From: Microgenomates group bacterium
GTDB lineage: Bacteria; Patescibacteriota; Microgenomatia; UBA12405
Length of the DNA stretch: 64,000 nucleotides
NCBI GenBank assembly: GCA_049303675.1
Contig: JBAQNJ010000001.1
Span: 278,994-342,993 of the forward strand
Direction: 5' to 3'
The position numbers and the translations under genes are program-made. The notes beneath the pieces are model-generated. The model saw only the letters and a program-made list of their open reading frames with translations, ran no database searches and was not told where the DNA came from. Shown in pieces: positions 4,782-60,060 of this stretch (the stretch's first letter is position 1; every line of letters starts with the position of its first letter).

Positions 4782-5541
4782 CTGGATGGAAAAAAGCCCT
4801 CTTTAGATCCACTTGTCCATTCTTAATTTTATTTTTCATGTACAATTTTTGCGGCCAGTAGACCAGCCAATTTATAAAGTTTAAAAATATTGTCTCATTT
4901 CTTTGTTTTGACTTTTTACTTTTTACTTTTGACTTTCGACTATATGGCGTCGCCACATATCTCCCAATCCACTTATTTTCCCTTATAAATTTCTTATATA
5001 TGCCACTTCTGTCTAGTACCGGTACCATCAATATTGAATCCATGGCATTTTTCAAGTTTTGCCTTTTTTGAGGTATTTCCAGCACGTCCTCTTCTAGCCA
5101 CAAATTAAAACAGAATTCATCACCCTTTTCGTTTTTGCCATACTTTCTATGGGGGATACCTCTTAATACCACAAATATTCTCAGCCACAATCTTGTCACC
5201 CATAGGCGGTTTTGTCTGGTGACAATCATCAAATCTATGTCGTCATCGACTTTTGGGTAGCCCGCCGCTACCGAGCCAGTTATGCCAACCAACAAAATAT
5301 TAGGGAAAAACTTTTCAATTAGTTTTACCACCTCCTTTGTTTTTACTATTTTATTATTCTTATTTTTAATTTTTAATTCGTAATTATTAATTCGTAATTT
5401 TTCCAATGCTCTATTTATGAGTTTTTCATTAAATACTGCCCCAGAAATCAAACGTTCCTTTATCACCCGTTTACTATATTCCACCCCATATTTTCTACCG
5501 TATTCTCTAGTTTTATTAATTGCCTCGTTTAATTGGTCCAC
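4765..5541 (-). CDS. Nucleotidyltransferase-fold protein
   Basis: Minimal NTase signature GITGSVAAGYPKVDDDIDLMIV (G-S ... DxD). GTG start 5 nt after a TAGAAT -10 box. Confidence 0.55.
   Translation of the reverse strand: MDQLNEAINKTREYGRKYGVEYSKRVIKERLISGAVFNEKLINRALEKLRINNYELKIKNKNNKIVKTKEVVKLIEKFFPNILLVGITGSVAAGYPKVDDDIDLMIVTRQNRLWVTRLWLRIFVVLRGIPHRKYGKNEKGDEFCFNLWLEEDVLEIPQKRQNLKNAMDSILMVPVLDRSGIYKKFIRENKWIGRYVATPYSRKSKVKSKKSKQRNETIFLNFINWLVYWPQKLYMKNKIKNGQVDLKRAFFHPDDKIG
4906..4940 (+). repeat. Tandem heptamer array TTTTGAC TTTTTAC TTTTTAC TTTTGAC TTTCGAC
   Basis: Read directly. Translated on the opposite strand as the KSKVKSKKSK tail region of the NTase-fold ORF. Confidence 0.85.
5367..5401 (+). 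repeat. Tandem heptamer array TAATTTT TAATTCG TAATTAT TAATTCG TAATTTT
   Basis: Read directly. Lies in the NTase-fold ORF (peptide LRINNYELKIKNKN). Confidence 0.8.
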
Positions 5542-5577
5542 TCTCTATTCTACCTTGGTATAATAATAGTCGTATCT

Positions 5578-7080
5578 ATGAATAAAAATGGCCGTTTATA
5601 CCGAATTCTTGAGATGGTTCCAGGAGTGTTTGCTTGGACAGCCATCACTTTCCCCATTTGGGGAGCCTTTATTTTTCCCAAGGTGGTTGCCTATTTTGTG
5701 ATTGCTTTTCTAATTTACTGGCTTTTTCAATCATTCAAATCAGCCATTTTTGCCATTATTGGTTATTTCAAAATTCATCGAGCTCAAAACACCTTGTGGT
5801 TTGAGCTATACAAACAACACCAAGATACCTCATGGTTGGAATATTCCAAAATTCACCATGTAATTATCATTTCCTCATACAAAGAACCTGTTGAAGTTAT
5901 CGACATGGCTGTAGGCAGTCTAGCTGCTCAAATTGATATCGACCTGCATCAGCTCCATGTGATTGTCGCCCAAGAGCAACGTGCCGGTATAGAAAATAAT
6001 CAGAGAACAATCAAATATTTTCAATCAAAATACAAAAACATTTTTGGCAACTTAATTTTTACCGAACATCCAGCAAATATCCATGGTGAAACTATTGGCA
6101 AACACAGCAACGAGGCCTACGCCGCCAAATATTTCAAAAAACACTATATCGATAATCACCAGTTTGATATTAATTTTCTAACACTCAGTTCTTGTGACGT
6201 TGATACTATTTTTAATCCCAAATATTTCTCTGCTCTTACTTATAACTTCGCCTCTTCCCCAAATCGTTATTTTAGATTCTGGCAGTCTCCCATCTTTTGG
6301 CATCACAATATTAATAGTGTCCCAGGACCAATTAGAATCATCGGAACTCTAGGCAATGTCATTCACATCGCCAATATTCAGGAGCCAGATGGTTTGTTTT
6401 TTAATTACTCCTGCTATTCATCGTCATATAAACTAATCGATTCAGCCGGTTACTGGGATGTCGACATGATACCTGAAGACTGGCATATTTTTCTCCAAAC
6501 ATTTTTTAGTAGCGGTGGTCGTAGCCAGGTTGAACCTATATTTCTCCCTACCATTGTCGACGCCCCCGATGGCAACAACTATCTTGACGCTCTCAAAAAT
6601 AGATACTCTCAATCCGTTCGTCACGCCTGGGGGGCTATTGATATACCCTATGCTATCCGCCAATCTGTGCTTCACCCCGAAATACCCTTTATCACCCGAG
6701 CCCTCCGTGTTTACAAGTTAGTCGAATCACATTTCATTTGGTCTAGTAATTGGTTCATCCTTACCCTAGGCACTTCACTTCCTGTTGTTCTCAACCCCAA
6801 ATTCTTCCAAACCACTATTGGTTTCAACCTACCTCGTATTTCCAATATCATTCTTACGCTCTGTCTTTTCCCGCTCATCTCCCTAATAATTCTCGACTGG
6901 AAACTCCGGCCAAAATATCAAAAAACTGGATTCAAAAATATCATGAACAATATCCTTCAATGGCCTTTTATGCCTTTGGCTACCTTGACCATGTCTGTCC
7001 TCCCCGGTCTCCATTCTCATACTCGACTCATGTTGGGCCAAAGGCTGGAATACAAGACTACCCAAAAAAAGGCAAAGTAA
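5578..7080 (+). CDS. Family 2 glycosyltransferase-like integral membrane protein
   Basis: VIIISSYKEPVEV, SSCDVD and a QSVRHAWG (Q-x-x-R-W-like) motif, flanked by TM segments. I prefer the ATG at 5578 (MNKNGRLY), 13 nt after TGGTATAAT, over the track start at 5533. Confidence 0.6.
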   Translation: MNKNGRLYRILEMVPGVFAWTAITFPIWGAFIFPKVVAYFVIAFLIYWLFQSFKSAIFAIIGYFKIHRAQNTLWFELYKQHQDTSWLEYSKIHHVIIISSYKEPVEVIDMAVGSLAAQIDIDLHQLHVIVAQEQRAGIENNQRTIKYFQSKYKNIFGNLIFTEHPANIHGETIGKHSNEAYAAKYFKKHYIDNHQFDINFLTLSSCDVDTIFNPKYFSALTYNFASSPNRYFRFWQSPIFWHHNINSVPGPIRIIGTLGNVIHIANIQEPDGLFFNYSCYSSSYKLIDSAGYWDVDMIPEDWHIFLQTFFSSGGRSQVEPIFLPTIVDAPDGNNYLDALKNRYSQSVRHAWGAIDIPYAIRQSVLHPEIPFITRALRVYKLVESHFIWSSNWFILTLGTSLPVVLNPKFFQTTIGFNLPRISNIILTLCLFPLISLIILDWKLRPKYQKTGFKNIMNNILQWPFMPLATLTMSVLPGLHSHTRLMLGQRLEYKTTQKKAK

Positions 7081-7093
7081 GCTAAAATATTTT

Positions 7094-8545
7094 ATGGTCA
7101 AGGTTTTTATACACAAGAACCGTTTTTTTATTATTCTATTTTTAATTTTTGTTTTATTACGTTTACCTTCTCTTTTTGAACCATATTGGTATGGCGATGA
7201 GGGGATTTATCTGGTACTAGGTCAAGCCATCCGTAGAGGTCTTGTTCTCTATACCCAAATTCACGATAACAAACCACCCACTCTCTATTACCTCGCTGCC
7301 CTTGCCCAGACAGTTTTTGGTTTTCGGCTTCTGTTGGCCCTATTCATGGCCGGAGCTTACTATTATTTTTATTTATTATCCAATAAATTATTGTCCTCAA
7401 AACTTTCTCAAGTTTCTTGTTTCTTGTTTCTTGTTTTAACTTCCATTCCCCTAATCGAAGGTAATATCGCCAATGCCGAGGTCTTTATGCTCCTCCCCAC
7501 TATTGCCGGTATATATTATTTTCTCTATTCCCATTCTAGTTTCAAATTTCTAGTTTCAGGCCTTTTACTTGGTTTCGCTTTCACCATCAAAATTCCAGTA
7601 GTAGTCGAATTTGGTTTTCTTGGTCTCTGGCTATTGATAAACAATAAAAATAATATCTACTCTACTCTAAAAAATTTATTCTTCTTCTCTCTTGGTTTCA
7701 TTTTTCCTTTTACCCTATACTTTATTTATTTTTATTTTAAGGGGGCTTTATCAGATTTTGTCTTCGCCTCAATTCTCCAAAATTTTGGCTATCTATCATC
7801 ATGGCAAACAGGCACTCACTCTGGCACGGCCACCAATAGTGGGTTGATAATCAGAGCCGTTACTCTGCTTGTTTTTTGGGGCACCACTTATTATCTGTAT
7901 TTAAAAAAATATCTCACCAAAAACACTTACCTTATTTTATTTTGGTTTTCTGCCACCATTTTTGGTGCACTTTTATCTGCCCGCCCATATCCTCACTATT
8001 TGATTCAGGTCACTCCGCCTCTCTGTCTGTTGATTCTCGCTATTTTTGATTCCAAGTTACATCCAAAAATTCGCTACTTTATTTTATTTTTGTGTTTTGT
8101 GTTTTGTGTTTTGATTTTTAGATTTAAATTCTATGCCTATCCCGTCTTTTCCTATTATAAAAACTATTATTCCCATCTCACCAGTCTAAGCTCACGCAGT
8201 TATCGAAATTATTTTGGATCCCGAGTTGACGATACCTACCAAATTTCCCAATACCTAAAAGACAATACCAGTCCTAACGACAAAATATTTGTTTGGGCCG
8301 ACGAACCCTATATTTATGCTCTCTCTTCTCGACTGCCAGTCGGCCGATTTACGGTTGCCTATCATATAGTCGACTTCAACCAGTACCTGCCCACATACAA
8401 CCAATTAATTGTTGATTTTCCCAAAGTAATTGTTACTTTTCCAATGAATAATCGACCCTATCCCGAACTCGAGAGATTACTAAAACTTTACTATCATCCC
8501 GATGCCAGCATCGGTGACTCAACCATATATTTTCGTACAGATTAA
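7094..8545 (+). CDS. GT39/GT83 (ArnT/PMT-like) polytopic glycosyltransferase
   Basis: About 12 TM segments. N-terminal YWYGDEGIYLVLGQ...HDNKPPTLYYL loop typical of ArnT/PMT-type lipid-linked sugar transferases. Confidence 0.6.
   Translation: MVKVFIHKNRFFIILFLIFVLLRLPSLFEPYWYGDEGIYLVLGQAIRRGLVLYTQIHDNKPPTLYYLAALAQTVFGFRLLLALFMAGAYYYFYLLSNKLLSSKLSQVSCFLFLVLTSIPLIEGNIANAEVFMLLPTIAGIYYFLYSHSSFKFLVSGLLLGFAFTIKIPVVVEFGFLGLWLLINNKNNIYSTLKNLFFFSLGFIFPFTLYFIYFYFKGALSDFVFASILQNFGYLSSWQTGTHSGTATNSGLIIRAVTLLVFWGTTYYLYLKKYLTKNTYLILFWFSATIFGALLSARPYPHYLIQVTPPLCLLILAIFDSKLHPKIRYFILFLCFVFCVLIFRFKFYAYPVFSYYKNYYSHLTSLSSRSYRNYFGSRVDDTYQISQYLKDNTSPNDKIFVWADEPYIYALSSRLPVGRFTVAYHIVDFNQYLPTYNQLIVDFPKVIVTFPMNNRPYPELERLLKLYYHPDASIGDSTIYFRTD
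7413..7433 (+). repeat. Tandem heptamer (TTTCTTG)x3, 21 nt
   Basis: Exact triplication read directly. Translated as CFLFLVL in a TM segment. Confidence 0.9.
8088..8108 (+). repeat. Tandem heptamer (TTTTGTG)x3, 21 nt
   Basis: Exact triplication read directly. Translated as LCFVFCVL in a TM segment. Confidence 0.9.
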
Positions 8546-9984: not shown

Positions 9985-10747
9985 ACAAGATCCAACCATT
10001 TTTATTGTTGCCCAAATCAATTTGAGTCCAATCAGTACTTTGTTGCAGTACCTTATACTTTTCCCCAGGTTTAATTTTTGTAACTTCAGTTCCACTACTA
10101 TTTGCGCTACTTCTGACTCTGAGCCACCCAGTTTCTGTCTCCAATATCCTCAGCATTTTTTCACCAGTTACTTCAGTTGGAGTTGGCACAGTCGTTGTCA
10201 CCGCCTGAACTTTTTCTTCAATTAAATCGGCATCAATTACCAACTGATAGCCGTTCACCATTCGAATGTATGAATTTATACTTTTGTGTCCGGGGTAGGA
10301 GATAGTTAACTTTCTGTCTCCCTCACCAATGTCTTCTAGTCGAATTGGCGAAAATCCCTTTACCTCATCATCTATCAGGACGGTCGACCGGTCAGGTCGC
10401 GAGCTCAACATAATTCCTGATTTTTTTGTATCCCCAGTTCCTTCGAAATAGAGCAAGTATCCACCATTTTGGCCATCTTCACTAAATTCACGATTAATAA
10501 CCGTATTTGCCCCGTTTTCCAGATGAACTGTTTTTATCCATTCTTGGCCATTTATCATTAGTTTAACTTTTACTTCCCCTGGCTTGAGTGTATTGCTTTT
10601 ATACGGAGTCATTCCTGCCTCTTTATCGTCTATATATACTTTTGCACTTGGGTAAGAGATTATTTCAATTCCCGATTTAGGAACACTCCAATTACATGCC
10701 GACAGTCCAAATGCCAGTGTCACCAGTATCCACAACTTCAATTTCAT
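9962..10747 (-). CDS. Lipoprotein with two PEGA-like domains and a C-terminal SH3b-like domain
   Basis: Lipobox LAFGLSAC. VYIDDKEAGMTPY and VLIDDEVKGFSPIRL are PEGA-like. WLRVRSSANSSGTEVTKIKPGEKYKV...WTQI is SH3b-like. Confidence 0.6.
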   Translation of the reverse strand: MKLKLWILVTLAFGLSACNWSVPKSGIEIISYPSAKVYIDDKEAGMTPYKSNTLKPGEVKVKLMINGQEWIKTVHLENGANTVINREFSEDGQNGGYLLYFEGTGDTKKSGIMLSSRPDRSTVLIDDEVKGFSPIRLEDIGEGDRKLTISYPGHKSINSYIRMVNGYQLVIDADLIEEKVQAVTTTVPTPTEVTGEKMLRILETETGWLRVRSSANSSGTEVTKIKPGEKYKVLQQSTDWTQIDLGNNKNGWILSKYAEIL

Positions 10748-10754
10748 AACATCA

Positions 10755-10762
10755 AGTATACT
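10755..10762. promoter_or_regulatory. Palindromic -10 element AGTATACT shared by two divergent leaderless genes
   Basis: TATACT reads on both strands. There are exactly 7 nt to the ATG at 10770 (+) and 7 nt to the ATG at 10747 (-). The intergenic region is only 22 bp. Confidence 0.55.
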
Positions 10763-10769
10763 AAATCAA

Positions 10770-11690
10770 ATGCGTCATTGGCTGATTTTTATTATTATTT
10801 CCTGTTCTTGTATTTTTTTGTCTTATTCTTACTTCTTAAATCATAAATCATATATCATATCCCCAACTGTTTATCAAAATTATATCCCGACAATCACTCC
10901 AACCCCCACACTGTCACCAACTGTGACAGTGGGCTTCGTCGGCGACCTTGGACTAGGCCGACACATCACCAGTACTGCTCGCAATAAAAATGATTTCAGT
11001 TGGAGCTTCACTCAAATTAATCCATGGCTATTGCAAAACGATTTTACCCTCGCCAATTTAGAGTCACCCATTATAACCAATTGTCCCTTAGGAAAAACCG
11101 GTACTTTTACTTTTTGTGGCGACCCAAAATTCATTCCCTACCTTACTCCATTTGTTATGAACCTCAACAATAACCATATTCTCAACTATGGTCTCGACGG
11201 TCTAAACCAGACAAAAAAATATTTACCCGACACCAGTTTTTACGACAATTTTTATATTAAAAAAGTGAATGGAATTTCTTTTGGATTTCTAGGATATGAT
11301 TTTATTACCTATCCACTCCAAGACAAACAGAAAATACTCAACGCTATAAGGTTGGCTAAACCACAGGTTGATTTTCTAGTGATATCCATTCACTGGGGTA
11401 ATGAGTATCTACCCCAACCAGAAAAATGGCGAGTAGAGTTGGCTCATCAAATGATCGATGCTGGGGCCGATTTTATTCATGGCCATCATCCTCATGTTTG
11501 GCAGGGGGTCGAGACTTACAAGGATAAATTAATTTTTTATTCTTTTGGCAACTTTATTTTTGACCAGAGTTGGTCCTACGAGACATCCCATTCCCAAATC
11601 GCCCGAGTTACTTTTGGCGACAATAAAATAAATTATGAATTATTTCCCATTGAGATCCGTTTTAACTCCCAACCCCGTCTAATACCTTGA
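10770..11690 (+). CDS. CapA/PGA_cap family metallophosphoesterase-like protein
   Basis: VGDLGLGRH, NLESPI, ISIHWGNEY, GADFIHGHHPHVWQG and YSFGNFIFDQ motifs. Confidence 0.75.
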   Translation: MRHWLIFIIISCSCIFLSYSYFLNHKSYIISPTVYQNYIPTITPTPTLSPTVTVGFVGDLGLGRHITSTARNKNDFSWSFTQINPWLLQNDFTLANLESPIITNCPLGKTGTFTFCGDPKFIPYLTPFVMNLNNNHILNYGLDGLNQTKKYLPDTSFYDNFYIKKVNGISFGFLGYDFITYPLQDKQKILNAIRLAKPQVDFLVISIHWGNEYLPQPEKWRVELAHQMIDAGADFIHGHHPHVWQGVETYKDKLIFYSFGNFIFDQSWSYETSHSQIARVTFGDNKINYELFPIEIRFNSQPRLIP

Positions 11691-14327: not shown

Positions 14328-14375
14328 AATTCAATTTTATACATAATTCTTAATACTTGATACTAAATACTTTTA

Positions 14376-15861: not shown

Positions 15862-15881
15862 CTATTATAATATTACCATCA

Positions 15882-17808: not shown

Positions 17809-17820
17809 TATAATCTCTGT

Positions 17821-46565: not shown

Positions 46566-46589
46566 GCCTTATCAATTAAAAGGAAAAAT

Positions 46590-47944: not shown

Positions 47945-48019
47945 ATTGAGCTTATAATATCACATAAATCGATATTATCAAGTAGTCAAGTTTAATATCA
48001 TTTTTGTTACAATCTCTCT

Positions 48020-51038: not shown

Positions 51039-51089
51039 ACCCTATATTATACGAAACACCAATTATATAGTCAACTATCCATCAAATTT

Positions 51090-51737
51090 CTATATTCTAT
51101 GTTCAGGATTGCTCTGCATTTTTCCTTTCGCCAGCCAGGGGCTGGGTCTCTTTGATCCTTTTTTATAACACTCTTTCAATTCTGTCACCAGTTCAGGTAT
51201 AAATTGCAAGTCAATTTTCTCCACTATATTTAGAGTATTAAACCAAATCATTTCCCAGCCATCATGGGCATATCCTAGGTATTTCCATTCCTGCATTTCC
51301 AGTAGGTACGCCGTCCAATCGGCCGCTTTTATTACTAGCTTTTCTCTTTCATTCAATTCTTCACCATACTTTGATGTGTCCATCTCTTCCGATATCGATG
51401 ACATCATTTCTTTATACGCCTTCTCTCCCGCCTTACTTGCCTCTTCTTTTATATTTATCTCCCAAAAACTGGCATAACTCGGACTTCCTGAGGGTATGTC
51501 TCCAATTACAATTTCCCGCCAATCATGGGTCATTGCATATCTCATCACTTTGTCAAAACTTATTTCTGGTTCGCCTAGTTTATCGACAAATAGCATGGCA
51601 AGGTAGCCCACCATATACGAATGTTCGGCAATCGATATATTCATACTCGTGGGCAGCCCCAAGGCCAAGTTCCCTCCAGTTCTTTTAATCCTATTTAAGT
51701 TTTGTAAATTTTGTACCAGTTCAAATATTTTTTTCAT
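51090..51737 (-). CDS. HD-domain phosphohydrolase (YfbR-like)
   Basis: RIKRTGG......SIAEHSYMVGYLA....HDWREIVIGDIP is the HD signature. Confidence 0.7.
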   Translation of the reverse strand: MKKIFELVQNLQNLNRIKRTGGNLALGLPTSMNISIAEHSYMVGYLAMLFVDKLGEPEISFDKVMRYAMTHDWREIVIGDIPSGSPSYASFWEINIKEEASKAGEKAYKEMMSSISEEMDTSKYGEELNEREKLVIKAADWTAYLLEMQEWKYLGYAHDGWEMIWFNTLNIVEKIDLQFIPELVTELKECYKKGSKRPSPWLAKGKMQSNPEHRI

Positions 51738-51751
51738 GACGAATTATAACT

Positions 51752-51782: not shown

Positions 51783-52884
51783 AAAAGTTTAATCGTGGAT
51801 CACGGTCCAGAGTCTCGGGATCCGACCATTCTTTTCGCTTCGCCAATTCCCAGCCCACTCTTCCAATCATGGCCGCATTATCGGTATTTAGCCATATTTT
51901 CGCTGGCATATAAATTAGCAATTTCTTTTTTCTGGCTAGGGCTCTCAGTTTTTTTCGAAGCATCATATTGGCCAGTACCCCTCCCGAGGCCATTATAGTT
52001 TTTGGCTCATATTTATCAATCGCCAAATCAAATTTTCTAATCAAAGTATTGAATACCGACTCTTGAAATGTTGCCGCCAGACTAGCCAAATTTTTATTTT
52101 TTTCCTCTATTGACCAGTCTTTTATTTTATAATAAAAACTAGTTTTCAGTCCCGAAAAGCTATAGTCCAACACTTTTTTATCGGCGAGCGGTTTGGGTAA
52201 TTCAAACAAATTATTATTGGCGCCAGCTTGCATCGCCAGTCGCTCTATCACCGGCCCCCCAGGGTATCCCAAACCCAGTAATTTTGCCGCCTTATCCAAC
52301 GCTTCTCCCGCCGCATCATCCAACGTTTCCCCCACTACAGTATATTTTTGTAAGGGCGTACCCTTGTGGTCGCCCTTTTCCAAAAGTACAATCTTCGTAT
52401 GTCCTCCACTTACCGTCAGGCAAATAGCTGGCAGCTCTATCTCTCTCTCTGGCAATCCTTTACTATTTTTGACGAGGTTAGACAATATATGTCCCTCCAC
52501 ATGATTCACCGCCACCAATTTTTTATTATATTTTATCGCCAATTCACAGGCAGTTTTCACCCCTACTCCTAGAGCAATCGCCAGCCCCGGCCCTTTCGTC
52601 ACTGCAATTACATCAACAGACTTCATGTAATATTCCAATGTCTTTCTCTCCCTTGTCAAAGGGAGATGCCCCGAAGGGGAGAGGGATTGAGAACGTTTCA
52701 ATGCCGTCATTATCACCGGCAAAATTCTCGCTTGATGTGCTCTTTTCGCAATATCCGGTACCACCCCACCCCAATCTTTATGCAAATCAGTTTGCGAGGA
52801 AATTACATTACTTATCACTCGATCATTTTCCAGCACTGCCGCACAGGTATCATCACAGCTGGTTTCAATCGCCAATATTTTCAT
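51781..52884 (-). CDS. tsaD: tRNA N6-adenosine threonylcarbamoyltransferase TsaD
   Basis: ILAIETSCDDTCAAV, NHVEGH, SGGHT and DDAAGEALDK motifs. Carries two repeat-derived in-frame insertions. Confidence 0.92.
   Translation of the reverse strand: MKILAIETSCDDTCAAVLENDRVISNVISSQTDLHKDWGGVVPDIAKRAHQARILPVIMTALKRSQSLSPSGHLPLTRERKTLEYYMKSVDVIAVTKGPGLAIALGVGVKTACELAIKYNKKLVAVNHVEGHILSNLVKNSKGLPEREIELPAICLTVSGGHTKIVLLEKGDHKGTPLQKYTVVGETLDDAAGEALDKAAKLLGLGYPGGPVIERLAMQAGANNNLFELPKPLADKKVLDYSFSGLKTSFYYKIKDWSIEEKNKNLASLAATFQESVFNTLIRKFDLAIDKYEPKTIMASGGVLANMMLRKKLRALARKKKLLIYMPAKIWLNTDNAAMIGRVGWELAKRKEWSDPETLDRDPRLNF
52345..52377 (+). repeat. GC-palindrome element, copy 2 (inside tsaD)
   Basis: TTTTTGTAAGGGCGTACCCTTGTGGTCGCCCT. 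Translated on the minus strand as KGDHKGTPLQK. Confidence 0.7.
52643..52688 (+). repeat. REP-like element, long form (copy G, inside tsaD)
   Basis: TTTCTCTCCCTTGTCAAAGGGAGATGCCCCGAAGGGGAGAGGGATT. The second hairpin is CCCC-GAA-GGGG instead of CGGC-GTA-GCCG. Translated on the minus strand as QSLSPSGHLPLTRERK. Confidence 0.9.
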
Positions 52885-52905
52885 AATTGGGTATATTATA
52901 AATTA

Positions 52906-53466
52906 ATGAGTCGCCATCTACCCTACATATTATTATCCCTCATTTTTTTAGGGCTATCCCTCTTTGGTGTTAATTACCTCAAAAGCATAGTTGTCGTCCA
53001 GCCGGAACCGCTAGTCAACGATGTTTTTCCCATTCCAACTGCCGCTGCCACGGCAACAGCGGTCCCTACCGATATCTCTGCAACTATGACTCTCGCCCCT
53101 ACAGTGACTCCTGTTACCCAAACTCTAACTAGTGACAAATATCACTTTAGCTTAGTTTACCCATCTTTCCGTACTTTATACGAAGCAGCCGAGAATGGGG
53201 GTACCCGTTTTACCCTTTATTCTGCCTCTGGCAATATCACTCTTCACGCTGGCACCCTCTGGTCATGGACTCATCCCAGCCGTGTTTTTTCCACCGAGTT
53301 ACTCGTTTCCGGACAGCCCACCTTTGTCTACCGTGTTCCCACCCAGACAATTGTCGACTTCCAAAACGGTGGTATCAACTACACTATTCAGTGTGTCCAC
53401 AAAGACATTCCTTCAGCCGTTCTCGAGTGCGACAATATTATCTCCAGCTTCGTTCTAACTTCCTAA
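52906..53466 (+). CDS. Hypothetical secreted/anchored protein
   Basis: Start moved to MSRHLPYILLSLIFLGLSLF (TATTAT + 6 nt + ATG). The track start at 52666 runs antisense through tsaD. Confidence 0.4.
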   Translation: MSRHLPYILLSLIFLGLSLFGVNYLKSIVVVQPEPLVNDVFPIPTAAATATAVPTDISATMTLAPTVTPVTQTLTSDKYHFSLVYPSFRTLYEAAENGGTRFTLYSASGNITLHAGTLWSWTHPSRVFSTELLVSGQPTFVYRVPTQTIVDFQNGGINYTIQCVHKDIPSAVLECDNIISSFVLTS

Positions 53467-54136
53467 TCAACATATTTTTTTTGACGTATTCTCTGGTAAA
53501 TGACACCAAACTCTTTTTTCTATCAATACTCATCTCAAAATCACCAACTCTTATTTTCTCTATTATCTCCTGCCAACTTTTTATCCCTTCACCAAAAACC
53601 ATTTTTCCCTTACCGAGATACATTAGTGCATGAGCATCACTGCCAGTTATGGATATCATGTTCAGTTTTTTTGCCAGACGTACTGCCTTTCTGGTAGCCA
53701 ATTTTGTTTGGGCCACACAATAGCTTTCCATCGCGTCTAGGTCAAGTTTTTTTATTTTGCTATTCAGCGACGAGCCAAACTTGTTAAACGGGTGAGCCGC
53801 GATAGCCAACCCACCTTGTTGATGAATCAGTTCTATTGTCTCCTTAGCACTTAACTTGGCCGGAATTTCTCTCAATATGCCATAAGCTAATATATGTCCA
53901 TCTTTACTGGATATTTCACACGCCGGCACCAGCACTATCGGCAGTTTTTTGTCCCCAATTATTTTTTTTGCCCTCCGATATCCTTCTAGTGAATCATGAT
54001 CGGTAATTGCCAATATTTCAATTCCTAGCTCAATACATCTCTCCATAATTTCCTCCACCGACATCACCGAGTCATAAAACTTTTTGAAGTAGGGGAGTCT
54101 AGTTGTCCGGCTATGGCAATGTAATTCCGCAATCAT
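53438..54136 (-). CDS. PHP-domain metal-dependent phosphoesterase
   Basis: AELHCHS, ITDHDS, AHP and GSDAH motifs. Confidence 0.75.
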   Translation of the reverse strand: MIAELHCHSRTTRLPYFKKFYDSVMSVEEIMERCIELGIEILAITDHDSLEGYRRAKKIIGDKKLPIVLVPACEISSKDGHILAYGILREIPAKLSAKETIELIHQQGGLAIAAHPFNKFGSSLNSKIKKLDLDAMESYCVAQTKLATRKAVRLAKKLNMISITGSDAHALMYLGKGKMVFGEGIKSWQEIIEKIRVGDFEMSIDRKKSLVSFTREYVKKNMLIRKLERSWR

Positions 54137-54159
54137 TATGTATTATATATAATTCGAAG

Positions 54160-54191: not shown

Positions 54192-54208
54192 AGGTGTTAT
54201 TATAAAGT

Positions 54209-54769
54209 ATGAACAAAACACTTATCTCTATTGTTGCCATTCTTGTTTTTCTCGGTCTGGTTCTCGCCGGAGTCTACAACAATCTTATCTCTCTAAATCA
54301 AAAAGTTGACCTTGCTTGGGCTCAGGTTGATACTCAGTATCAGCGTCGTTTTGACCTCATTCCCAATTTAGTCTCATCAGTCCAAGGCGAGATGAAACAG
54401 GAGCAGAAAATATTCTCCGACATTGCTACCGCTCGGACTCAATATTCCGGTGCTGCCTCGGTCAATGACAAAGCCACTGCCGCCACAGCCTTAGAGGGGA
54501 CTTTGGGCAGATTATTAGTTATTATGGAAAATTATCCCGTTCTAAAATCCAACGAAAATGTCACTCGACTTATGGATGAATTGGCTGGTACCGAAAATCG
54601 TATCAGTGTCGAGCGCTCTCGTTTCAACAATCAGGTTACTACCTACAACATGGTAGTAATTCGATTCCCTGGCAATCTTCTCGCTCGACTTTTTGGCTTT
54701 AGTTCACGAGCATTTTTTCAAAGTGCCAGTGGCGCCGATGTTGCCCCACGAGTGGAAATTAATCCCTAA
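54209..54769 (+). CDS. lemA: LemA family protein
   Basis: N-terminal TM plus YNNLISLNQKVDLAWAQVDTQYQRRFDLIPNLV. Confidence 0.9.
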   Translation: MNKTLISIVAILVFLGLVLAGVYNNLISLNQKVDLAWAQVDTQYQRRFDLIPNLVSSVQGEMKQEQKIFSDIATARTQYSGAASVNDKATAATALEGTLGRLLVIMENYPVLKSNENVTRLMDELAGTENRISVERSRFNNQVTTYNMVVIRFPGNLLARLFGFSSRAFFQSASGADVAPRVEINP

Positions 54770-55727: not shown

Positions 55728-56816
55728 TCAAAAATTTATCTCCCGTGTCGTCTCATCCACATAGCTAAAATTAATCGGTATATAGTTAGTTATTTTTTTT
55801 AATTTATTTAGGTATTCTTCACCCATATTTTCCGGCCACTCAATACAGGCAACTAGCTCTGAGCTTGTCGAAGGGAATTGTTCCAAAAATTTTATTTCCT
55901 CAAATTCATATTTATTTCCCAATCTATACAAATCAAAATGTAAAAATTTCTTGCACTGATAACTGTTCACTGATAACTGTTCACTGATTAAATATTCATT
56001 ATAAATTACAAACGTCGGGCTAGTTATTTTTTCCTTTACCCCGAGTAGTTGTCCTATCTTTCGGGAAAATACAGTCTTTCCACAACCTAGGTCTCCGCTC
56101 AATCCAAACACTAGAGGTTTTCTCTCCCTTGTTAAAGGGAGAAGCGGCGTAGCCGAGAGGGATTTGTTCAACAAAAATTCAGCAATTTTCTCCGTTTCCT
56201 TTTCCGATTTAGAAATTAGTGTTTGGGATTTCCCCACTATCAAGTCTCCCCGTCTGAGGATTTTTATCTCCGGTTCAGTGGCGTCAATTACTGTCGATGG
56301 TTTGTTCCGTGGTAATTTACCACTGTCCACCATCATATCGATCATCATCAATTTTTTCTGGGACAGAGTTTTTACAAAGCTTGCCAGTGAATAGTGGGGA
56401 GTCCGTCCCGACAGATTCGCTGACGTCGCCGTCACTGGCCCTCCCACCGCCTTCACCAGATCCATTATCCATTGGTTATCCGGTATTCGTATTCCCAATG
56501 TCCCATTTTCCGCCTCTATACCCTTGGCCACCTTATGTTTGCCCTCCGACACAATCGTAAAAGGTCCGGGTAGCAAGTTTGCATAAATATTTTCTGCATT
56601 TTCACTCAGTTTTACAAAATCTTGTGCCATTTTTTTATCTGCTACAGCTATCGATATCGCCTTCCCCGTCCATCTGTTTTTAAATGCGAGAAGTTTATCT
56701 GTTGCGCTCTGGCTTCTCGGATCTACCGCCAAAATGTACACCGTATCACTCGGGAATATTACTAGCCCACCATCTTTTATTATTCTGGCCGCCTTTTCAA
56801 TATCCTCGACTTTCAT
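55728..56816 (-). CDS. Fusion of a Sua5/YrdC (TsaC) domain and TsaE
   Basis: N-terminal half: FPSDTVYILAVD, LPGPFT, TATSANLSG, STVID, ILRRG (YrdC fold). C-terminal half: GDLGCGKTVFSRKIG, SPTF, HFDLYRL, IEWPE (TsaE). Confidence 0.8.
   Translation of the reverse strand: MKVEDIEKAARIIKDGGLVIFPSDTVYILAVDPRSQSATDKLLAFKNRWTGKAISIAVADKKMAQDFVKLSENAENIYANLLPGPFTIVSEGKHKVAKGIEAENGTLGIRIPDNQWIMDLVKAVGGPVTATSANLSGRTPHYSLASFVKTLSQKKLMMIDMMVDSGKLPRNKPSTVIDATEPEIKILRRGDLIVGKSQTLISKSEKETEKIAEFLLNKSLSATPLLPLTRERKPLVFGLSGDLGCGKTVFSRKIGQLLGVKEKITSPTFVIYNEYLISEQLSVNSYQCKKFLHFDLYRLGNKYEFEEIKFLEQFPSTSSELVACIEWPENMGEEYLNKLKKITNYIPINFSYVDETTREINF
55955..55989 (+). repeat. Tandem heptamer array ACTGATA ACTGTTC ACTGATA ACTGTTC ACTGATT
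   Basis: Read directly. Lies inside the TsaE module, translated as ISEQLSVNSYQ. Confidence 0.85.
56118..56165 (+). repeat. REP-like element, long form (copy I, inside the TsaE module)
   Basis: TTTCTCTCCCTTGTTAAAGGGAGAAGCGGCGTAGCCGAGAGGGATTT. Translated on the minus strand as SLSATPLLPLTRERKP just before the P-loop strand. Confidence 0.9.
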
Positions 56817-56832
56817 GGGGATATTCTATCAC

Positions 56833-57246
56833 TTAAGGGTTAGATTTTTGAGCTTCTTCCAATAACACCTTCGACACCCTCTCAAGTCCCCACATCTGAA
56901 TTTGATAAAGACTTACATCTGTTGTTACCGCGCCTGTTAAAAACCCTCTGTCAAATTCTTCCTTTGCTACTTCTGAGCAATGAAGGGCAAAACCAGCTAG
57001 AGCCAAATCGGGATTTAATTTATTTACTTGATCATAAATTGTCAGCGCTACTAGATCATCGTTTCCACTTTGATATTCGAGTTTCATACCAGTTTCTTGT
57101 ACTCTCAGGCTATTCACCAGATCTAAAGTAATTTCTCTAGCTGTCTCCAAACCAATTTTTTCTGGAGTAGCTTTTTCAAATTTTTCTCTCAAACCATCAT
57201 CTGTTAAAAGCCTTTGATTTAACTTGCTACTTCCTTCGTTAAACAT
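56833..57246 (-). CDS. Hypothetical protein
   Basis: 137-aa ORF. TAATAT + 7 nt + ATG. Confidence 0.35.
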   Translation of the reverse strand: MFNEGSSKLNQRLLTDDGLREKFEKATPEKIGLETAREITLDLVNSLRVQETGMKLEYQSGNDDLVALTIYDQVNKLNPDLALAGFALHCSEVAKEEFDRGFLTGAVTTDVSLYQIQMWGLERVSKVLLEEAQKSNP

Positions 57247-57305
57247 TTTTTTATATTAAATTTTTAATCTGCCCTCATTATATTTCATTTCTCTCCCATG
57301 TCAAA

Positions 57306-57725
57306 ATGTTAAACTCTCTTATGTCCAAGTATGCAATACCACTTTTCATTTGTCTTATTCTTACAAGTCTTATCTATAGTCAGAAAAATAATTTTTCCTC
57401 GGGCAACCGCTATTACTCGACTTTGCAACAGTGGTATTCGTTTGCCCAAACAGGGGACTGGGTAAGTGCTGATCGTCTCGCCACTCGTCTTGATCCAGCC
57501 GACATTGCTCACTATCGTTCACTTTATCATCCCGACGAATTAAAAAAAGATATAAATACCCTGATGTTGGCGCCCCAAAAATCCGTCGAGGATTGGATAG
57601 AATTAGCCCGTATTCAGGCAATCTTAGGCAAAGGCAGTGAGTCACTCGAATCTTTGTCCCGGGCTCATTCTCTCGACCTCCTGCGCGACGACATTAGTCG
57701 TCTCTATTACCAGACCAAAAAATAA
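57306..57725 (+). CDS. Hypothetical protein with N-terminal anchor
   Basis: 139-aa ORF, helical, possibly TPR-like. Confidence 0.35.
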   Translation: MLNSLMSKYAIPLFICLILTSLIYSQKNNFSSGNRYYSTLQQWYSFAQTGDWVSADRLATRLDPADIAHYRSLYHPDELKKDINTLMLAPQKSVEDWIELARIQAILGKGSESLESLSRAHSLDLLRDDISRLYYQTKK

Positions 57726-58579: not shown

Positions 58580-58780
58580 TTATATTGTTATAGTAAAGAT
58601 TCCCCGTCCATATGTTTTTCTTGTATCTGTTTCTTCTTCTTTTTGAGGAGGAGTTACGTATCCCTCAGGCATTTCAACTCTTGCAGTTACTTGTGTTGAT
58701 ACAGGTGTAAAACCATCTTTCTTCACGATAGCTTTCCTCTCAGCAACTTTATTTGAAAATTCTTTCCATAATATCTTCAT
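58580..58780 (-). CDS. Hypothetical small protein
   Basis: 66 aa. TGATATAAT + 7 nt + ATG. Confidence 0.3.
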   Translation of the reverse strand: MKILWKEFSNKVAERKAIVKKDGFTPVSTQVTARVEMPEGYVTPPQKEEETDTRKTYGRGIFTITI

Positions 58781-58805
58781 GTCCTATATTATATCATTTA
58801 TTTTT

Positions 58806-59429: not shown

Positions 59430-59693
59430 CTAGTACACCTCCTCATGTTTGCCAATTTTTAATAAATATATAGTACCTTTTTCAATTGACAACAAAATTC
59501 TGATTGATTTATTAACTGAAATTGAATACCATTTTGTTCCTGACAACTTATGCAGCCTGAGGCTTGGATGATCTACATCATGTTCGAGAAGATCTACTAT
59601 TTTTCTAATTTTAACTACATACTTTCGATTGTGTCGAGTTAAATTTCGAAGCTGCTGATCAAATTTGTTTCCGAATACAATTTTGTACACCAA
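59430..59693 (-). CDS. RelE/ParE-fold toxin
   Basis: HPSLRLHKLSGTKWYSISVNKSIRILLSIEKGTIYLLKIGKHEEVY pattern. Lies 6 nt after the antitoxin ORF. Confidence 0.7.
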   Translation of the reverse strand: MVYKIVFGNKFDQQLRNLTRHNRKYVVKIRKIVDLLEHDVDHPSLRLHKLSGTKWYSISVNKSIRILLSIEKGTIYLLKIGKHEEVY

Positions 59694-59699
59694 CTAACA

Positions 59700-59936
59700 C
59701 TATAGACTCTTGAAATAGTTGTCAATATCTTTCTTGTTTTTTAATACAAAGCCCTTACCAGCCTTCCTCTCAGCTTTTGCTTCTGACAATAATTGATCAA
59801 GCTCTGACTCCATCAAAGTTTTTCGTAGTGATGATCTAACCAGATCACTAAACGAGGCATAATAGCCCTTTTCTATTTCTTTTTCAGCCAAAGTCTTTAA
59901 TGCCTTCGGTAGCGATATATTAATTGTACTAATCAT
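59700..59936 (-). CDS. Ribbon-helix-helix (ParD/CopG-like) antitoxin
   Basis: INISLPKALKTLAEKEIEKGYYASFSDLVRSSLRKTL is RHH-like. TGCTAATAT + 6 nt + ATG. Confidence 0.65.
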   Translation of the reverse strand: MISTINISLPKALKTLAEKEIEKGYYASFSDLVRSSLRKTLMESELDQLLSEAKAERKAGKGFVLKNKKDIDNYFKSL

Positions 59937-59973
59937 GTATGAATATTAGCATAATTGACACATGAAGACAATG

Positions 59974-59982
59974 TGTTACAAT
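59974..59982 (+). promoter_or_regulatory. Extended -10 promoter (TGTTACAAT) of the Trp leader transcript
   Basis: 6 nt upstream of the leader ATG at 59989, the same geometry as other leaderless genes here. Confidence 0.6.
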
Positions 59983-59988
59983 ATCCCA

Positions 59989-60060
59989 ATGAAATTAAAC
60001 ATCTCTACAATCTGGTGGCGAGAATCTAGCCCAAGTGCGGGAGATATTAATTTGTCATAA
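59989..60060 (+). CDS. Trp-rich leader peptide MKLNISTIWWRESSPSAGDINLS
   Basis: Tandem TGG TGG at 60013-60018 in the context WWRES (E. coli TrpL: [14 protein letters not shown]). Followed by alternative antiterminator/terminator helices. Confidence 0.65.
   Translation: MKLNISTIWWRESSPSAGDINLS

What the first reader, a model, noticed from the sequence alone, without database searches (positions are those of the whole stretch)
5539..59991. Pervasive leaderless gene starts: extended -10 box 5-8 nt upstream of the start codon, no Shine-Dalgarno
More than twenty starts that I checked by eye have TGnTAnAAT-like boxes ending 5-8 nt before the start codon.
- On the + strand: 7094, 10770, 17821, 21922, 22636 (GTG), 26049, 32235, 35087, 38228, 45147, 45766, 48020, 52906, 59989.
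- On the - strand: 5541 (GTG), 10747, 28802, 29500, 36006, 40059, 40358, 51038, 51737, 56816, 57246, 58780, 59936.
- An identical 18-mer, TGATATAATTTGATTATG, starts unrelated genes at 35072-35089 (+) and 40074-40057 (-).
- The same CTTTGATATAATTTG core drives the tRNA-Tyr gene (20507-20521).
- In several cases the ORF-track start (TTG or an upstream Met) is better replaced by the ATG at this fixed distance.
- By contrast, metK and tpiA have AAAGGA SD-like sequences and real leaders, and the 16S 3' end keeps CCTCC.

The genome therefore appears to mix a dominant leaderless mode with a few SD-led, probably regulated, genes.
Basis: seen in the sequence. Interest (0 to 1): 0.5.

Follow-up and report, generated by a model that had tools for sequence, protein, structure and literature searches.

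The report
Leaderless gene starts in a Microgenomates bacterium
In this small-genome uncultured bacterium (Microgenomates, candidate phyla radiation) about half of all genes have a promoter -10 box 5-7 bases before the start codon and almost none has a ribosome-binding site, so most messages probably start at the start codon; the mechanism is known elsewhere but I found no report of it for this group.

Summary
Of 85 independently called genes, 30 (35%) have a TAnnnT box (at least 5/6 match to TATAAT) ending 5-7 nt before the start codon. The rate at internal in-frame ATGs is 1.3% (p=4e-18). A weight matrix adds 11 weaker cases, giving 46/85 overall and 24/31 divergently transcribed first genes.

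The box looks like a promoter. A TGn extension is present in 43% against 6% background. A pyrimidine sits at -1 in 77%. The same motif precedes tRNA-Tyr, tmRNA, the 16S gene and the metK riboswitch.

Shine-Dalgarno complementarity upstream of starts is weaker than at internal ATGs, although the 16S rRNA keeps CCUCC. Only about 7 genes look SD-led.

The trait is shared by relatives. In 308 ORFs from 27 loci, 44.5% carry the box against 2.5% in controls.

A conserved Trp-codon leader peptide in front of tRNA-Trp/trpS also starts 6-9 nt after a -10 box.

No transcription start site has been mapped.

This is the known "leaderless" architecture in a new, low-GC lineage.

The parts
5539..5552 (-). 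-10 box + start codon, hyp258: TAGAAT-5-GTG (divergent)
7083..7096 (+). TAAAAT-5-ATG, hyp483 (13 nt behind upstream gene)
10745..10760 (-). TATACT-7-ATG, PEGA/SH3 protein (divergent)
10754..10772 (+). TATACT-7-ATG at 10770, alternative start of PGA_cap gene (one public call uses 10923 instead)
14325..14339 (-). TAAAAT-6-ATG, GAPDH
15432..15448 (-). TAAAAT-8-ATG, PGK (box inside rpiB coding end)
15859..15872 (-). TATTAT-5-ATG, RpiB (20-nt divergent intergenic region)
15868..15884 (+). weak TAATAT-8-ATG (also TATAAT at 10 nt), YgjP-like
16611..16625 (+). TATATT-6-ATG, hyp84
17809..17823 (+). TATAAT-6-ATG, hyp287 (12 nt behind 6PGD gene)
19777..19790 (-). TATAAT-5-ATG, glyoxalase
20149..20162 (-). 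TATAAT-5-ATG, hyp117
21816..21830 (-). weak TAAATT-6-ATG, NrdR
21910..21924 (+). weak TATAAA-6-ATG, hyp124
22622..22638 (+). TGcTATAAT-5-GTG, RecF-like
26038..26051 (+). TACAAT-5-ATG, AAA_18 kinase-like
28537..28550 (-). TATAAT-5-ATG, hyp94 (overlaps upstream gene by 4 nt)
28800..28816 (-). weak TGaTATACC-5-ATG, hyp88
29498..29514 (-). TGaTATACT-5-ATG, hyp130
29527..29543 (+). weak TGaTAAACT-5-GTG, SpoIID-domain protein
32221..32237 (+). TGtTATAAT-5-ATG, hyp235
33239..33252 (+). TATCAT-5-ATG, hyp600; a TAnnnT box at 5-8 nt precedes the orthologous start in 67/73 related loci (68 counting one that scored better in another register)
35072..35089 (+). TGaTATAAT-6-ATG, hyp162 (18-mer copy 1)
36004..36021 (-). 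TGaTATAAT-6-ATG, hyp142
36802..36819 (-). weak TGaTAGATT-6-GTG, hyp78
38212..38230 (+). TGcTATAAT-7-ATG, hyp75 (box inside murA 3' end)
39130..39143 (-). TAAAAT-5-ATG, GIY-YIG protein
40057..40074 (-). TGaTATAAT-6-ATG, hyp112 (18-mer copy 2)
40356..40373 (-). TGaTATAAT-6-ATG, hyp70
40380..40400 (+). TGtTATACT-9-ATG, methyltransferase
41680..41699 (+). TGaTACAAT-8-ATG, hyp142b
45132..45149 (+). weak TGtTAATAT-6-ATG, SurA_N protein (41-nt divergent region)
45755..45768 (+). TTGACT-17-TACAAT-5-ATG, RelB antitoxin
47942..47962 (-). TGaTATTAT-9-ATG, hyp63
48005..48022 (+). TGtTACAAT-6-ATG, RNase H
51036..51051 (-). TTGACT-17-TATAAT-7-ATG, hyp122
51735..51748 (-). TATAAT-5-ATG, YfbR-like HD protein
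52882..52898 (-). weak TAATAT-8-ATG (TATAAT at 10 nt), TsaD (21-nt divergent region)
52894..52908 (+). TATTAT-6-ATG, hyp186
54134..54147 (-). TATAAT-5-ATG, PHP-domain protein
54195..54211 (+). TGtTATTAT-5-ATG, LemA
56814..56831 (-). TGaTAGAAT-6-ATG, Sua5/TsaE
57244..57260 (-). weak box (TAATAT at 6 nt / TTTAAT at 8 nt)-ATG, hyp137
57307..57323 (+). weak TGtTAAACT-5-ATG, hyp134
58778..58796 (-). TGaTATAAT-7-ATG, hyp66
59688..59704 (-). TATAGT-8-GTG, ParE-like toxin
59934..59951 (-). weak TGcTAATAT-6-ATG, hyp78b
59955..60060 (+). TTGACA-16-TACAAT-6-ATG, then a 23-codon leader peptide MKLNISTIWWRESSPSAGDINLS* (Trp codons at 60013-60018)
60084..60109 (+). Terminator hairpin plus T-run of the Trp attenuator; its 5' arm can instead pair with 60035-60045 inside the sORF
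60185..60258 (+). tRNA-Trp, followed by hyp320 (60260) and trpS (61219-62385)
20510..20518 (+). TGaTATAAT promoter box 13 nt before tRNA-Tyr (20532)
39696..39724 (-). TTGATT-17-(TG)TAGAAT promoter 17 nt before tmRNA 5' end (39678)
46462..46490 (+). TTGCAT-17-TATTAT promoter of the SAM-I/IV riboswitch / metK leader
23963..23971 (+). TATAAT box about 150 nt upstream of the 16S rRNA gene
46578..46592 (+). SD-like AAAAGGAAAAAT + ATG of metK (leadered, riboswitch 46493-46599)
43489..43502 (-). SD-like AAAAGGAAACA + ATG of tpiA
59436..59444 (-). GAGGAGGTG, the strongest SD match in the window (-15.3 kcal/mol), 9 nt before the SNase start at 59426
62600..62613 (+). SD-like AAGAGG-5-GTG of hyp299
25606..25618 (+). 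16S rRNA 3' end GATCACCTCCTTT (anti-SD intact)

Best explanation
**What it is.** The window comes from a roughly 1-Mb Microgenomates (OP11, Shapirobacteria-like) genome.

**Proposed mechanism (inferred).**
- The housekeeping sigma factor recognises extended -10 promoters (TnTGnTAtAAT) with little or no -35 element.
- For about half of all genes, and about three quarters of first genes of transcription units, this box ends 5-7 nt before the start codon.
- RNA polymerase then initiates on the A (or G) of the ATG/GTG. With the preceding pyrimidine this forms a Y-R-Y start element.
- The mRNA therefore has no 5' UTR, or one of at most 3 nt, and is translated without Shine-Dalgarno pairing.
- Many boxes lie in the last codons of the upstream gene, so tightly packed genes would carry their own nested promoters.
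- A minority of genes keep real leaders with an SD. metK behind its SAM riboswitch is an example.
- Operon-internal genes with neither signal are presumably started by re-initiation or on A-rich unstructured spacers.

**Shown:** motif, spacing, enrichment, promoter-type features, SD depletion, conservation in relatives.

**Inferred:** the transcription start position and the mode of ribosome recruitment.
For: **Enrichment and spacing**
- Strict -10 box at 5-7 nt: 30/85 called starts against 4/301 internal ATGs, p=4e-18. The peak is sharp at 5-6 nt, and box density is flat from 12 to 120 nt upstream, so no other promoter signal is enriched.

**Promoter-specific features**
- TGn extension: 15/35 against 5.8% of all such hexamers in the window. 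In relatives it is 61/137 against 5.0%, p=2e-38, with an extra T two positions upstream of the TG.
- Pyrimidine at -1: 77% against 40% at internal ATGs, p=4e-5. PMC12641261 reports start sites centred 7 bp after the -10 element and a Y-R-Y start element across 49 bacteria.
- The same box drives untranslated genes: tRNA-Tyr, tmRNA, the riboswitch and 16S.
- First genes are enriched. 24/31 divergent genes carry a strict or weak box, against 12/36 genes 30 nt or less behind a co-directional gene.
- Six divergent pairs have only 20-41 nt between their start codons.

**Starts are sound**
- 25/35 are the first possible start codon in the ORF, with a median of 62 codons to the next ATG.
- N-termini of GAPDH, RpiB, RNase H, RecF and TsaD begin as these families usually do (the comparison is from my own knowledge of the families).
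- Box-proximal start codons are ATG 32, GTG 3, TTG 0 in the window, and 110/24/3 in relatives.

**No SD**
- Mean anti-SD duplex energy upstream of starts is -1.37 kcal/mol, against -2.96 at internal ATGs.
- With the same crude ORF method, loci from unrelated phyla, including many Bacillota, mostly show 40-80% SD-like motifs and 0-15% boxes.

**Conservation**
- The orthologous hyp600 start has TAnnnT at 5-8 nt in 67/73 loci sharing only 28-51% protein identity (68 counting one more that scored better in another register). Two of the remaining five have a GGGGAG/GAGGGG run instead.
- In 27 non-duplicate related loci, 44.5% of 308 ORFs carry the box against 2.5% in controls.

**Function-linked case**
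- A Trp-codon leader peptide with terminator and antiterminator, upstream of tRNA-Trp/trpS, is conserved in four genomes. It always starts 6-9 nt after a -10 box and never has an SD.
Against: - No transcription start site data exist for this organism.
- In the window the commonest spacing is 5 nt. That puts the A of ATG 6 bp after the box, one less than the cross-species mode of 7. Relatives peak at 6 nt.
- There is no -35 enrichment: in the window 4/35 against 3% at 5/6 match or better (p=0.02), and none in relatives. Promoter identity therefore rests on the -10/TGn element alone.
- About one third of boxes sit in front of genes 30 nt or less behind a co-directional gene, where a promoter is not required.
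- The public gene calls may use upstream motifs when choosing starts. This is mitigated.
- The sample is 64 kb of a 998-kb genome.
Confidence: 0.75

Rival explanations
1. The TAtAAT-like box acts on the RNA, not the DNA. It would be an A/U-rich, non-SD ribosome-binding or S1-binding element inside a longer 5' UTR, as proposed for the 'group B' genomes of Bacteroidota. Transcription would start farther upstream.
For: - The box also precedes 11-12 of the 36 genes that lie 30 nt or less behind a co-directional gene.
- Genes without a box still have A-rich, G-poor sequence from -8 to -2.
- The 18 nt before hyp600 are conserved well beyond the hexamer.
- No start site data are available.
Against: - The TGn extension is enriched 8-9 fold. 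It is a contact for RNA polymerase and has no known role in translation.
- The identical motif precedes tRNA, tmRNA and riboswitch genes.
- Frequency is 77% at divergent first genes against about 33% at internal genes.
- No other promoter-like signal is enriched up to 120 nt upstream.
- Divergent pairs with 20-41 nt between starts would need promoters inside the opposite coding region.
- TTG starts are avoided.
Confidence: 0.1
2. The boxes are promoters, but the mRNAs mostly carry very short leaders (about 3-10 nt) rather than none. Ribosomes would then load by a 5'-end-dependent but not strictly leaderless route.
For: - 8 genes have a strict box 10-16 nt upstream, and the spacing histogram has a tail at 8-13 nt in the window and in relatives.
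- The Trp leader peptide in L164 has 9 nt of spacing.
Against: - The main peak is at 5-6 nt, where initiation 6-8 bp after the box falls on the start codon itself.
- A pyrimidine at -1 and a purine at +1 favour the A of ATG as the start site.
Confidence: 0.12
3. The pattern is an artefact of A+T-rich intergenic DNA or of start-codon choice by gene callers.
For: Upstream regions are A+T-rich, and gene finders can learn upstream motifs.
Against: - Enrichment is positional: a peak at 5-6 nt and a flat profile elsewhere in the same upstream regions.
- It appears with longest-ORF starts as well.
- 25/35 starts have no alternative upstream start codon.
- 44 of 78 '-10 box + 4-9 nt + ATG' composites anywhere in the window are followed by an ORF of 60 aa or more.
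- Low-GC Bacillota control loci do not show the pattern.
Confidence: 0.02

Closest known systems
Leaderless genes of Actinobacteria and Deinococcus-Thermus (GeneMarkS-2 'group C'; M. tuberculosis, D. deserti)
   Same: A Pribnow-type -10 box (TANNNT) sits 6-8 nt before the start codon of first genes, with no SD and AUG/GUG starts. The predicted share of 25-50% of operons, and about 60% measured in D. deserti (PMC6028130), is comparable with 41-54% of genes here.
   Different: - Those genomes are high-GC. Code-11 group C genomes are reported to be almost all high-GC (MetaGeneMark-2 preprint). This one is 40% GC.
- In group C the remaining genes use SD sites. Here only about 7 of the 50 genes without a strict proximal box do.
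- The box here is a near-consensus extended -10 (TGnTATAAT) rather than a loose TANNNT.
Mycoplasma / Mollicutes group C genomes
   Same: Low GC, reduced genome, and 30-60% of genes predicted leaderless. From my own knowledge, not tested here: Mycoplasma promoters are dominated by the -10 element with a weak -35.
   Different: Mollicutes use genetic code 4 and belong to Bacillota-related lineages. This genome uses the standard code (long ORFs under table 11) and belongs to the candidate phyla radiation.
Haloarchaea such as Haloferax volcanii and Halobacterium salinarum (group D)
   Same: Most transcripts are leaderless, and (from my own knowledge) SD pairing is largely dispensable even for internal genes although the anti-SD is retained. 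A three-way mix of leaderless, SD-led and 'neither' genes is seen.
   Different: The archaeal promoter (TATA box about 22-26 nt upstream) and the archaeal initiation factors differ. The resemblance is functional, not family membership.
E. coli trpL-type leader-peptide attenuators
   Same: The sORF at 59989 has tandem Trp codons. It shows 1:2, 2:3 and 3:4 alternative pairings and a terminator with a T-run, and it lies upstream of Trp-related genes.
   Different: - It controls tRNA-Trp and trpS rather than a biosynthetic operon.
- The leader peptide has no SD and starts 6 nt after the -10 box.
- No Rfam family, Trp_leader included, reached its gathering score there.

Membership tests
Bacterial leaderless-gene architecture (GeneMarkS-2 group C) | Pribnow -10 box at a fixed distance of about 6-8 nt from the start codon in a large share of first genes | tested here: met
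   30/85 starts at 5-7 nt against 1.3% in controls. 24/31 divergent genes when weaker boxes are included.
Bacterial leaderless-gene architecture (GeneMarkS-2 group C) | Transcription start site coincides with the start codon (5' UTR 0-5 nt) | not testable with these tools
   No RNA 5'-end data. There is only indirect support from spacing and the Y(-1)R(+1) context.
Bacterial leaderless-gene architecture (GeneMarkS-2 group C) | No Shine-Dalgarno sequence upstream of these starts | tested here: met
   Anti-SD duplex energy of -1.37 kcal/mol, weaker than at internal ATGs (-2.96).
Bacterial leaderless-gene architecture (GeneMarkS-2 group C) | Start codon AUG or GUG at the 5' end | tested here: met
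   ATG 32, GTG 3, TTG 0 in the window. ATG 110, GTG 24, TTG 3 in relatives.
Bacterial leaderless-gene architecture (GeneMarkS-2 group C) | Remaining genes (internal or leadered) use SD-type ribosome-binding sites (dual model) | tested here: not met
   Only about 7 of the 50 genes without a strict proximal box show SD-like complementarity. 24 genes have neither signal.
Non-SD RBS genomes (GeneMarkS-2 group B, Bacteroidota type) | The same upstream motif occurs before first and internal genes alike, so it cannot be a promoter | tested here: not met
   The motif occurs at 77% of divergent first genes against about 33% of internal genes. It carries a TGn extension and also precedes RNA genes.
Mollicutes-type low-GC group C | Low GC, with promoters dominated by the -10 element | tested here: met
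   GC about 40%. No -35 enrichment in relatives and only a weak one in the window.
Mollicutes-type low-GC group C | Genetic code 4 (TGA = Trp) | tested here: not met
   Genes are complete under table 11 and match public calls.
Leader-peptide transcription attenuator (trp type) | Short ORF with tandem codons of the regulating amino acid | tested here: met
   WW or WWW is present in all four orthologous sORFs.
Leader-peptide transcription attenuator (trp type) | Intrinsic terminator with mutually exclusive antiterminator and anti-antiterminator pairings | tested here: met
   The terminator is conserved with a compensatory change. In all four sequences the 1:2, 2:3 and 3:4 duplexes are -7 to -16 kcal/mol. 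This is computational only.
Leader-peptide transcription attenuator (trp type) | Read-through responds to charged tRNA-Trp supply | not testable with these tools
   Needs in vivo or in vitro transcription-translation assays.

The most novel reading that the evidence does not exclude
In Shapirobacteria-like Microgenomates, leaderless initiation would be the default way to express a gene.
- Nearly every transcription unit, and many genes inside tight clusters, would carry its own extended -10 promoter abutting the start codon.
- Shine-Dalgarno pairing would be kept only for a handful of regulated genes, despite an intact anti-SD.
- Internal genes would be started by re-initiation.

That would make this the first low-GC, standard-code bacterial lineage with a haloarchaeon-like initiation regime. 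It would link the reduced ribosomes of the candidate phyla radiation to 70S-type, 5'-end-dependent initiation.
Probability: 0.4. Interest if true: 0.6.

Novelty: new member of a known kind. Interest (0 to 1): 0.5.

Why it matters
- Translation initiation in the candidate phyla radiation is essentially unstudied. Published work notes smaller ribosomes, short bS1 and loss of the anti-SD in some Parcubacteria (PMC9297842). None of my six full-text searches pairing 'leaderless' or 'Shine-Dalgarno' with names of this group returned a paper describing leaderless mRNAs in it.
- If confirmed, the pattern matters for gene-start annotation of thousands of such genomes.
- It would also guide the design of expression cassettes for the few cultivable members: a TGnTATAAT box 6 nt before the ATG, with no ribosome-binding site.
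- It bears on the debate whether leaderless initiation is ancestral or repeatedly derived in reduced genomes.
- The conserved Trp leader peptide offers a compact natural test case, because its regulatory logic requires translation of a message without a leader.

Tried and rejected
- **-35 element.** Not enriched in relatives and only marginally in the window. The generic sigma-70 scan, which requires both hexamers, was uninformative: 72 found against 47 +/- 8 expected.
- **tRNA promoters in relatives.** Only 2 tRNAs were found in the 32 loci scanned, too few for statistics.
- **Rfam.** No T-box, Trp_leader or any other family beyond tRNAs and group I introns reached gathering score in the six trpS loci from relatives. 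In the window itself the only family hits are the 16S rRNA, tmRNA, two tRNAs and the SAM-I/IV riboswitch, so nothing was found at the tRNA-Trp leader.
- **Literature.** Searches for the accession or run numbers found nothing. The TM7x transcription-start paper (PubMed 35975994) is not held. The GeneMarkS-2 supplementary tables are not held.
- **The 18-mer as a mobile or duplicated element: rejected.** Identity does not extend beyond the 18 nt. Nine of them are the promoter consensus, so a chance match of the 6-nt spacer among about 35 promoters is not unlikely. This is my own estimate, about 0.15.
- **Breadth across Microgenomates.** The trait is not universal. By the crude ORF method the Beckwithbacteria and Gottesmanbacteria loci show 8% and 0% boxes (13 and 16 ORFs), and a Pacebacteria locus shows 30%.

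Full report
**Source and context**

The window is part of contig JBAQFH010000001.1 (998,417 bp) of assembly GCA_049287145.1. NCBI labels the TrpRS of this assembly 'Microgenomates group bacterium'. Its nearest relatives are Candidatus Shapirobacteria (83% and 76% identity), followed by Beckwith-, Gottesman- and Pacebacteria.

The DNA is about 40% G+C with strong strand skew. The window carries:
- an isolated 16S gene (24120-25618) with an intact ...GATCACCUCCUUU 3' end;
- a tmRNA, tRNA-Tyr and tRNA-Trp;
- a SAM-I/IV riboswitch in front of metK.

Public gene calls for the whole window were recovered from four look-ups. They give 85 protein genes, tabulated.

**Checking the observation**

I defined a strict box as TAnnnT with at least 5/6 match to TATAAT.
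- 22 of the 27 have a strict box ending 5-8 nt before the start codon.
- Five are weaker: 21922, 28802, 45147, 57246 and 59936.

The other items check out as well.
- 10770 is used by one of two public calls.
- 59989 is an uncalled 23-codon ORF.

**Is it more than chance?**

- Among the 85 called starts, 30 (35%) have a strict box ending 5-7 nt upstream. The figure for internal in-frame ATGs is 4 of 301 (1.3%), giving an odds ratio of 40 and p=4e-18.
- Within the same upstream regions the spacing histogram reads 16, 10, 4 and 4 at 5, 6, 7 and 8 nt. Beyond 12 nt and out to 120 nt it is flat at about one per position. A+T-richness of intergenic DNA therefore does not explain the peak.
- The signal is already visible with naive longest-ORF starts.
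- Of 78 '-10 box, 4-9 nt, ATG' composites anywhere in the window, 44 are followed by an ORF of at least 60 codons.
- 25 of the 35 box-proximal starts (spacing 4-9 nt) are the first possible start codon of their ORF. The next in-frame ATG lies a median of 62 codons downstream. Gene-caller bias is therefore not the cause.
- The N-termini of GAPDH, RpiB, RNase H, RecF, TsaD, 6PGD and MurA begin as these families normally do (the comparison is from my own knowledge of the families).

**Promoter or RNA signal?**

Aligned on the hexamer, the consensus is T-G-n-T-A-t-A-A-T.
- The TGn extension is present in 15/35 cases, against 5.8% of all such hexamers in the window.
- In relatives it is present in 61/137 cases against 5.0% (p=2e-38). 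There is also a T two positions farther upstream. From my own knowledge, this resembles the '-16 region' of Gram-positive promoters.
- No -35 element is enriched in relatives, and only marginally in the window.
- The same extended -10 motif lies 13 nt before tRNA-Tyr and 17 nt before the tmRNA. It also sits at the promoter of the metK riboswitch and upstream of the 16S gene.
- The base before the start codon is a pyrimidine in 77% of box-proximal starts, against 40% at internal ATGs (p=4e-5). Y-A-T is the Y-R-Y 'start element'. That element, together with a modal distance of 7 bp from the -10 element, sets the transcription start site across 49 bacteria (PMC12641261).
- A spacing of 6 nt puts the A of ATG at that 7th position.
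- TTG starts are absent among box-proximal starts in the window, and number 3/137 in relatives.

**Distribution over gene contexts**

A weight matrix trained on the strict set was applied to the other 50 genes.
- 24% of them exceed the 95th percentile of the control, and these are almost all divergently transcribed genes.

The overall classification of the 85 genes is:

| Class | Genes |
|---|---|
| Strict box at 4-9 nt | 35 |
| Weaker box | 11 |
| Strict box 10-16 nt upstream (short leader) | 8 |
| SD-like | 7 |
| Neither signal | 24 |

- Among the 31 divergently transcribed genes, 24 (77%) have a strict or weak proximal box.
- Among the 36 genes 30 nt or less behind a co-directional gene, 12 do, and 16 have neither signal.
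- Six divergent pairs have only 20-41 nt between their two start codons. That leaves no room for 5' UTRs unless the promoters lie inside the opposite gene.

**Shine-Dalgarno usage**

- Predicted pairing of the 18 nt upstream of starts with the 16S 3' end averages -1.37 kcal/mol. This holds for genes with and without a box. It is weaker than at internal ATGs, which average -2.96.
- SD-like cases are few: the SNase gene (GAGGAGGTG), metK and tpiA (AAAAGGAAA), hyp299, hyp72b, hyp98 and a GIY-YIG gene.
- Genes without a box have A-rich, G-poor sequence from -8 to -2.
- Nine of the 16 operon-internal 'neither' genes lie within 5 nt of, or overlap, the upstream stop codon. That arrangement fits termination-reinitiation, which is an inference.
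- With the same crude ORF method, control loci from unrelated phyla, many of them Bacillota, mostly show 40-80% SD-like motifs and 0-15% boxes. The window shows 10% and 30%.

**Relatives**

A metagenome scan with the lineage-specific 600-aa protein at 33250 returned 73 loci with 28-51% identity, nearly all aligned from residue 1.
- The orthologous ATG is preceded by TAnnnT at 5-8 nt in 67 of the 73 loci, or 68 counting one more that scored better in another register. 52 of the 67 are strict, mostly GTAGTATCATTAATTA|ATG.
- Of the other five loci, two carry a G-rich SD-like run instead (GGGGAG in L092, GAGGGG in L155). Two have the box only 3 nt from the ATG, and one has no box.
- In the flanks of 27 non-duplicate loci, 44.5% of 308 ORFs have a strict box at 5-7 nt, against 2.5% in controls. 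SD-like motifs stand at 10.7% against 26.4% in controls. Spacing peaks at 6 nt (65 ORFs) and 5 nt (33).
- Three loci around trpS from Shapirobacteria-like genomes give 20/57 called starts with a box.
- Beckwith- and Gottesmanbacteria loci show little of the pattern, and a Pacebacteria locus shows 30%. The trait is therefore clade-restricted within Microgenomates, although these samples are small.

**A function-linked example**

It lies 6 nt after TTGACA-16-TACAAT, close to the sigma-70 consensus in both hexamers. A hairpin with a T-run follows, then tRNA-Trp, a 320-aa gene and trpS (TIGR00233, 211 bits, above the cutoff).

The same arrangement occurs in three relatives whose trpS is 71-83% identical to the window's.
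- The leader peptides contain WW or WWW and share a conserved A-G-D/G segment.
- The terminator shows a compensatory change.
- Three alternative pairings (1:2, 2:3, 3:4) of -7 to -16 kcal/mol are present in every sequence.
- None of the four sORFs has an SD. Their ATGs lie 6, 7, 9 and 7 nt after a -10 box.

An attenuator of this kind works only if the leader peptide is translated. This is therefore comparative evidence that messages starting at or next to the AUG are translated in this lineage.

**Comparison with what is known**

- A -10 box 6-8 nt before the start codon is the defining feature of GeneMarkS-2 'group C' genomes. These are mostly Actinobacteria and Deinococcus-Thermus, with 25-50% of operons predicted leaderless (PMC6028130).
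- Standard-code group C genomes are reported to be almost all high-GC. The low-GC examples are code-4 Mycoplasma, with 30-60% of genes leaderless.
- For the candidate phyla radiation, the literature I could search notes smaller ribosomes, short bS1 and loss of the anti-SD in part of the Parcubacteria (PMC9297842). I found no report of leaderless mRNAs in this group.
- The present case meets the group C features that can be tested from sequence, except that the non-leaderless genes do not use SD sites.
- I file it as a new member of a known kind: a low-GC, standard-code, reduced-genome lineage near the upper end of the bacterial range.

**Limits**

- No RNA 5'-end data exist for this organism.
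- The window's modal spacing (5 nt) is one base shorter than the canonical distance.
- Only 6% of the genome was examined.
- Whether boxes in front of tightly packed internal genes fire as promoters is unknown.

Noticed in passing
window 59955-60258 (with L163 5148-5345, L164 8830-9040, L165 8830-9045): A conserved trp-type leader-peptide attenuator precedes tRNA-Trp, hyp320 and trpS. It consists of a WW/WWW sORF, 1:2/2:3/3:4 alternative pairings, and a terminator with a compensatory change. No Rfam family reached gathering score there in the window or in the relatives' loci.
   Followed up: yes
L168 8063-8210; L166 8512-8960: Other Microgenomates appear to regulate the same tRNA-Trp/trpS cluster differently. 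The Pacebacteria locus has a 10-codon GTG-TGG-TGG mini-ORF plus a terminator, with a Trp-repressor-like gene next door. The Beckwithbacteria locus has a structured leader of about 370 nt and no WW ORF. Neither gave an Rfam hit.
   Followed up: partly
window 46421-46442; L164 about 5551-5599; L092 upstream of match start 66: A perfect 10-bp-arm palindrome, CCCCTCTTTG-nn-CAAAGAGGGG, followed by CTAGGGG(T/A)GAT recurs next to promoters or starts. It is seen before the metK riboswitch promoter here, between divergent genes in L164, and directly before hyp600 in L092. It could be an operator, a terminator or a mobile element.
   Followed up: partly
window 32190-32234 and 33205-33249: The roughly 45 nt upstream of hyp235 and hyp600 are about 80% identical (GGGrAGnGCGGCGwAGCCGAGrGGGGTTTTGwwGT + box). 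This is a repeated hairpin-like element just upstream of two leaderless-type promoters.
   Followed up: no
L090-L162, 18 nt before the hyp600 orthologue: GTAGTATCATTAATTA|ATGCAYTT is nearly invariant in dozens of loci whose proteins share only 32-40% identity with the window's hyp600. That is far more conservation than a -10 hexamer needs. In relatives it directly abuts the stop codon of the upstream DUF5657 gene.
   Followed up: partly
window 15861/15882, 52884/52906, 5541/5578, 40358/40398, 29500/29541, 45105/45147: Divergent gene pairs are separated by only 20-41 nt. In the 20-21 nt cases the two -10 boxes overlap on opposite strands (TATATTATAAAT-type sequences).
   Followed up: partly
window 1-60000: There is strong, sustained strand asymmetry (GC skew about -0.2, AT skew about -0.15), although genes lie on both strands.
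   Followed up: no
L164 about 11300-11330; L165 about 11385-11407: A small gene downstream of trpS in two relatives carries a perfect AAAGGAGGTGA Shine-Dalgarno sequence. The anti-SD is therefore evidently still used for selected genes in this lineage.
   Followed up: no
window 10770 vs 10923: Two public gene calls disagree on the start of the PGA_cap-domain gene (306 aa against 255 aa). The longer form starts 7 nt after a TATACT box, back-to-back with the divergent box of the gene starting at 10747.
   Followed up: no
L165 16713-16877; L167 5593-5821: Group I intron matches occur in intergenic parts of two related loci (Rfam, 58 bits).
   Followed up: no
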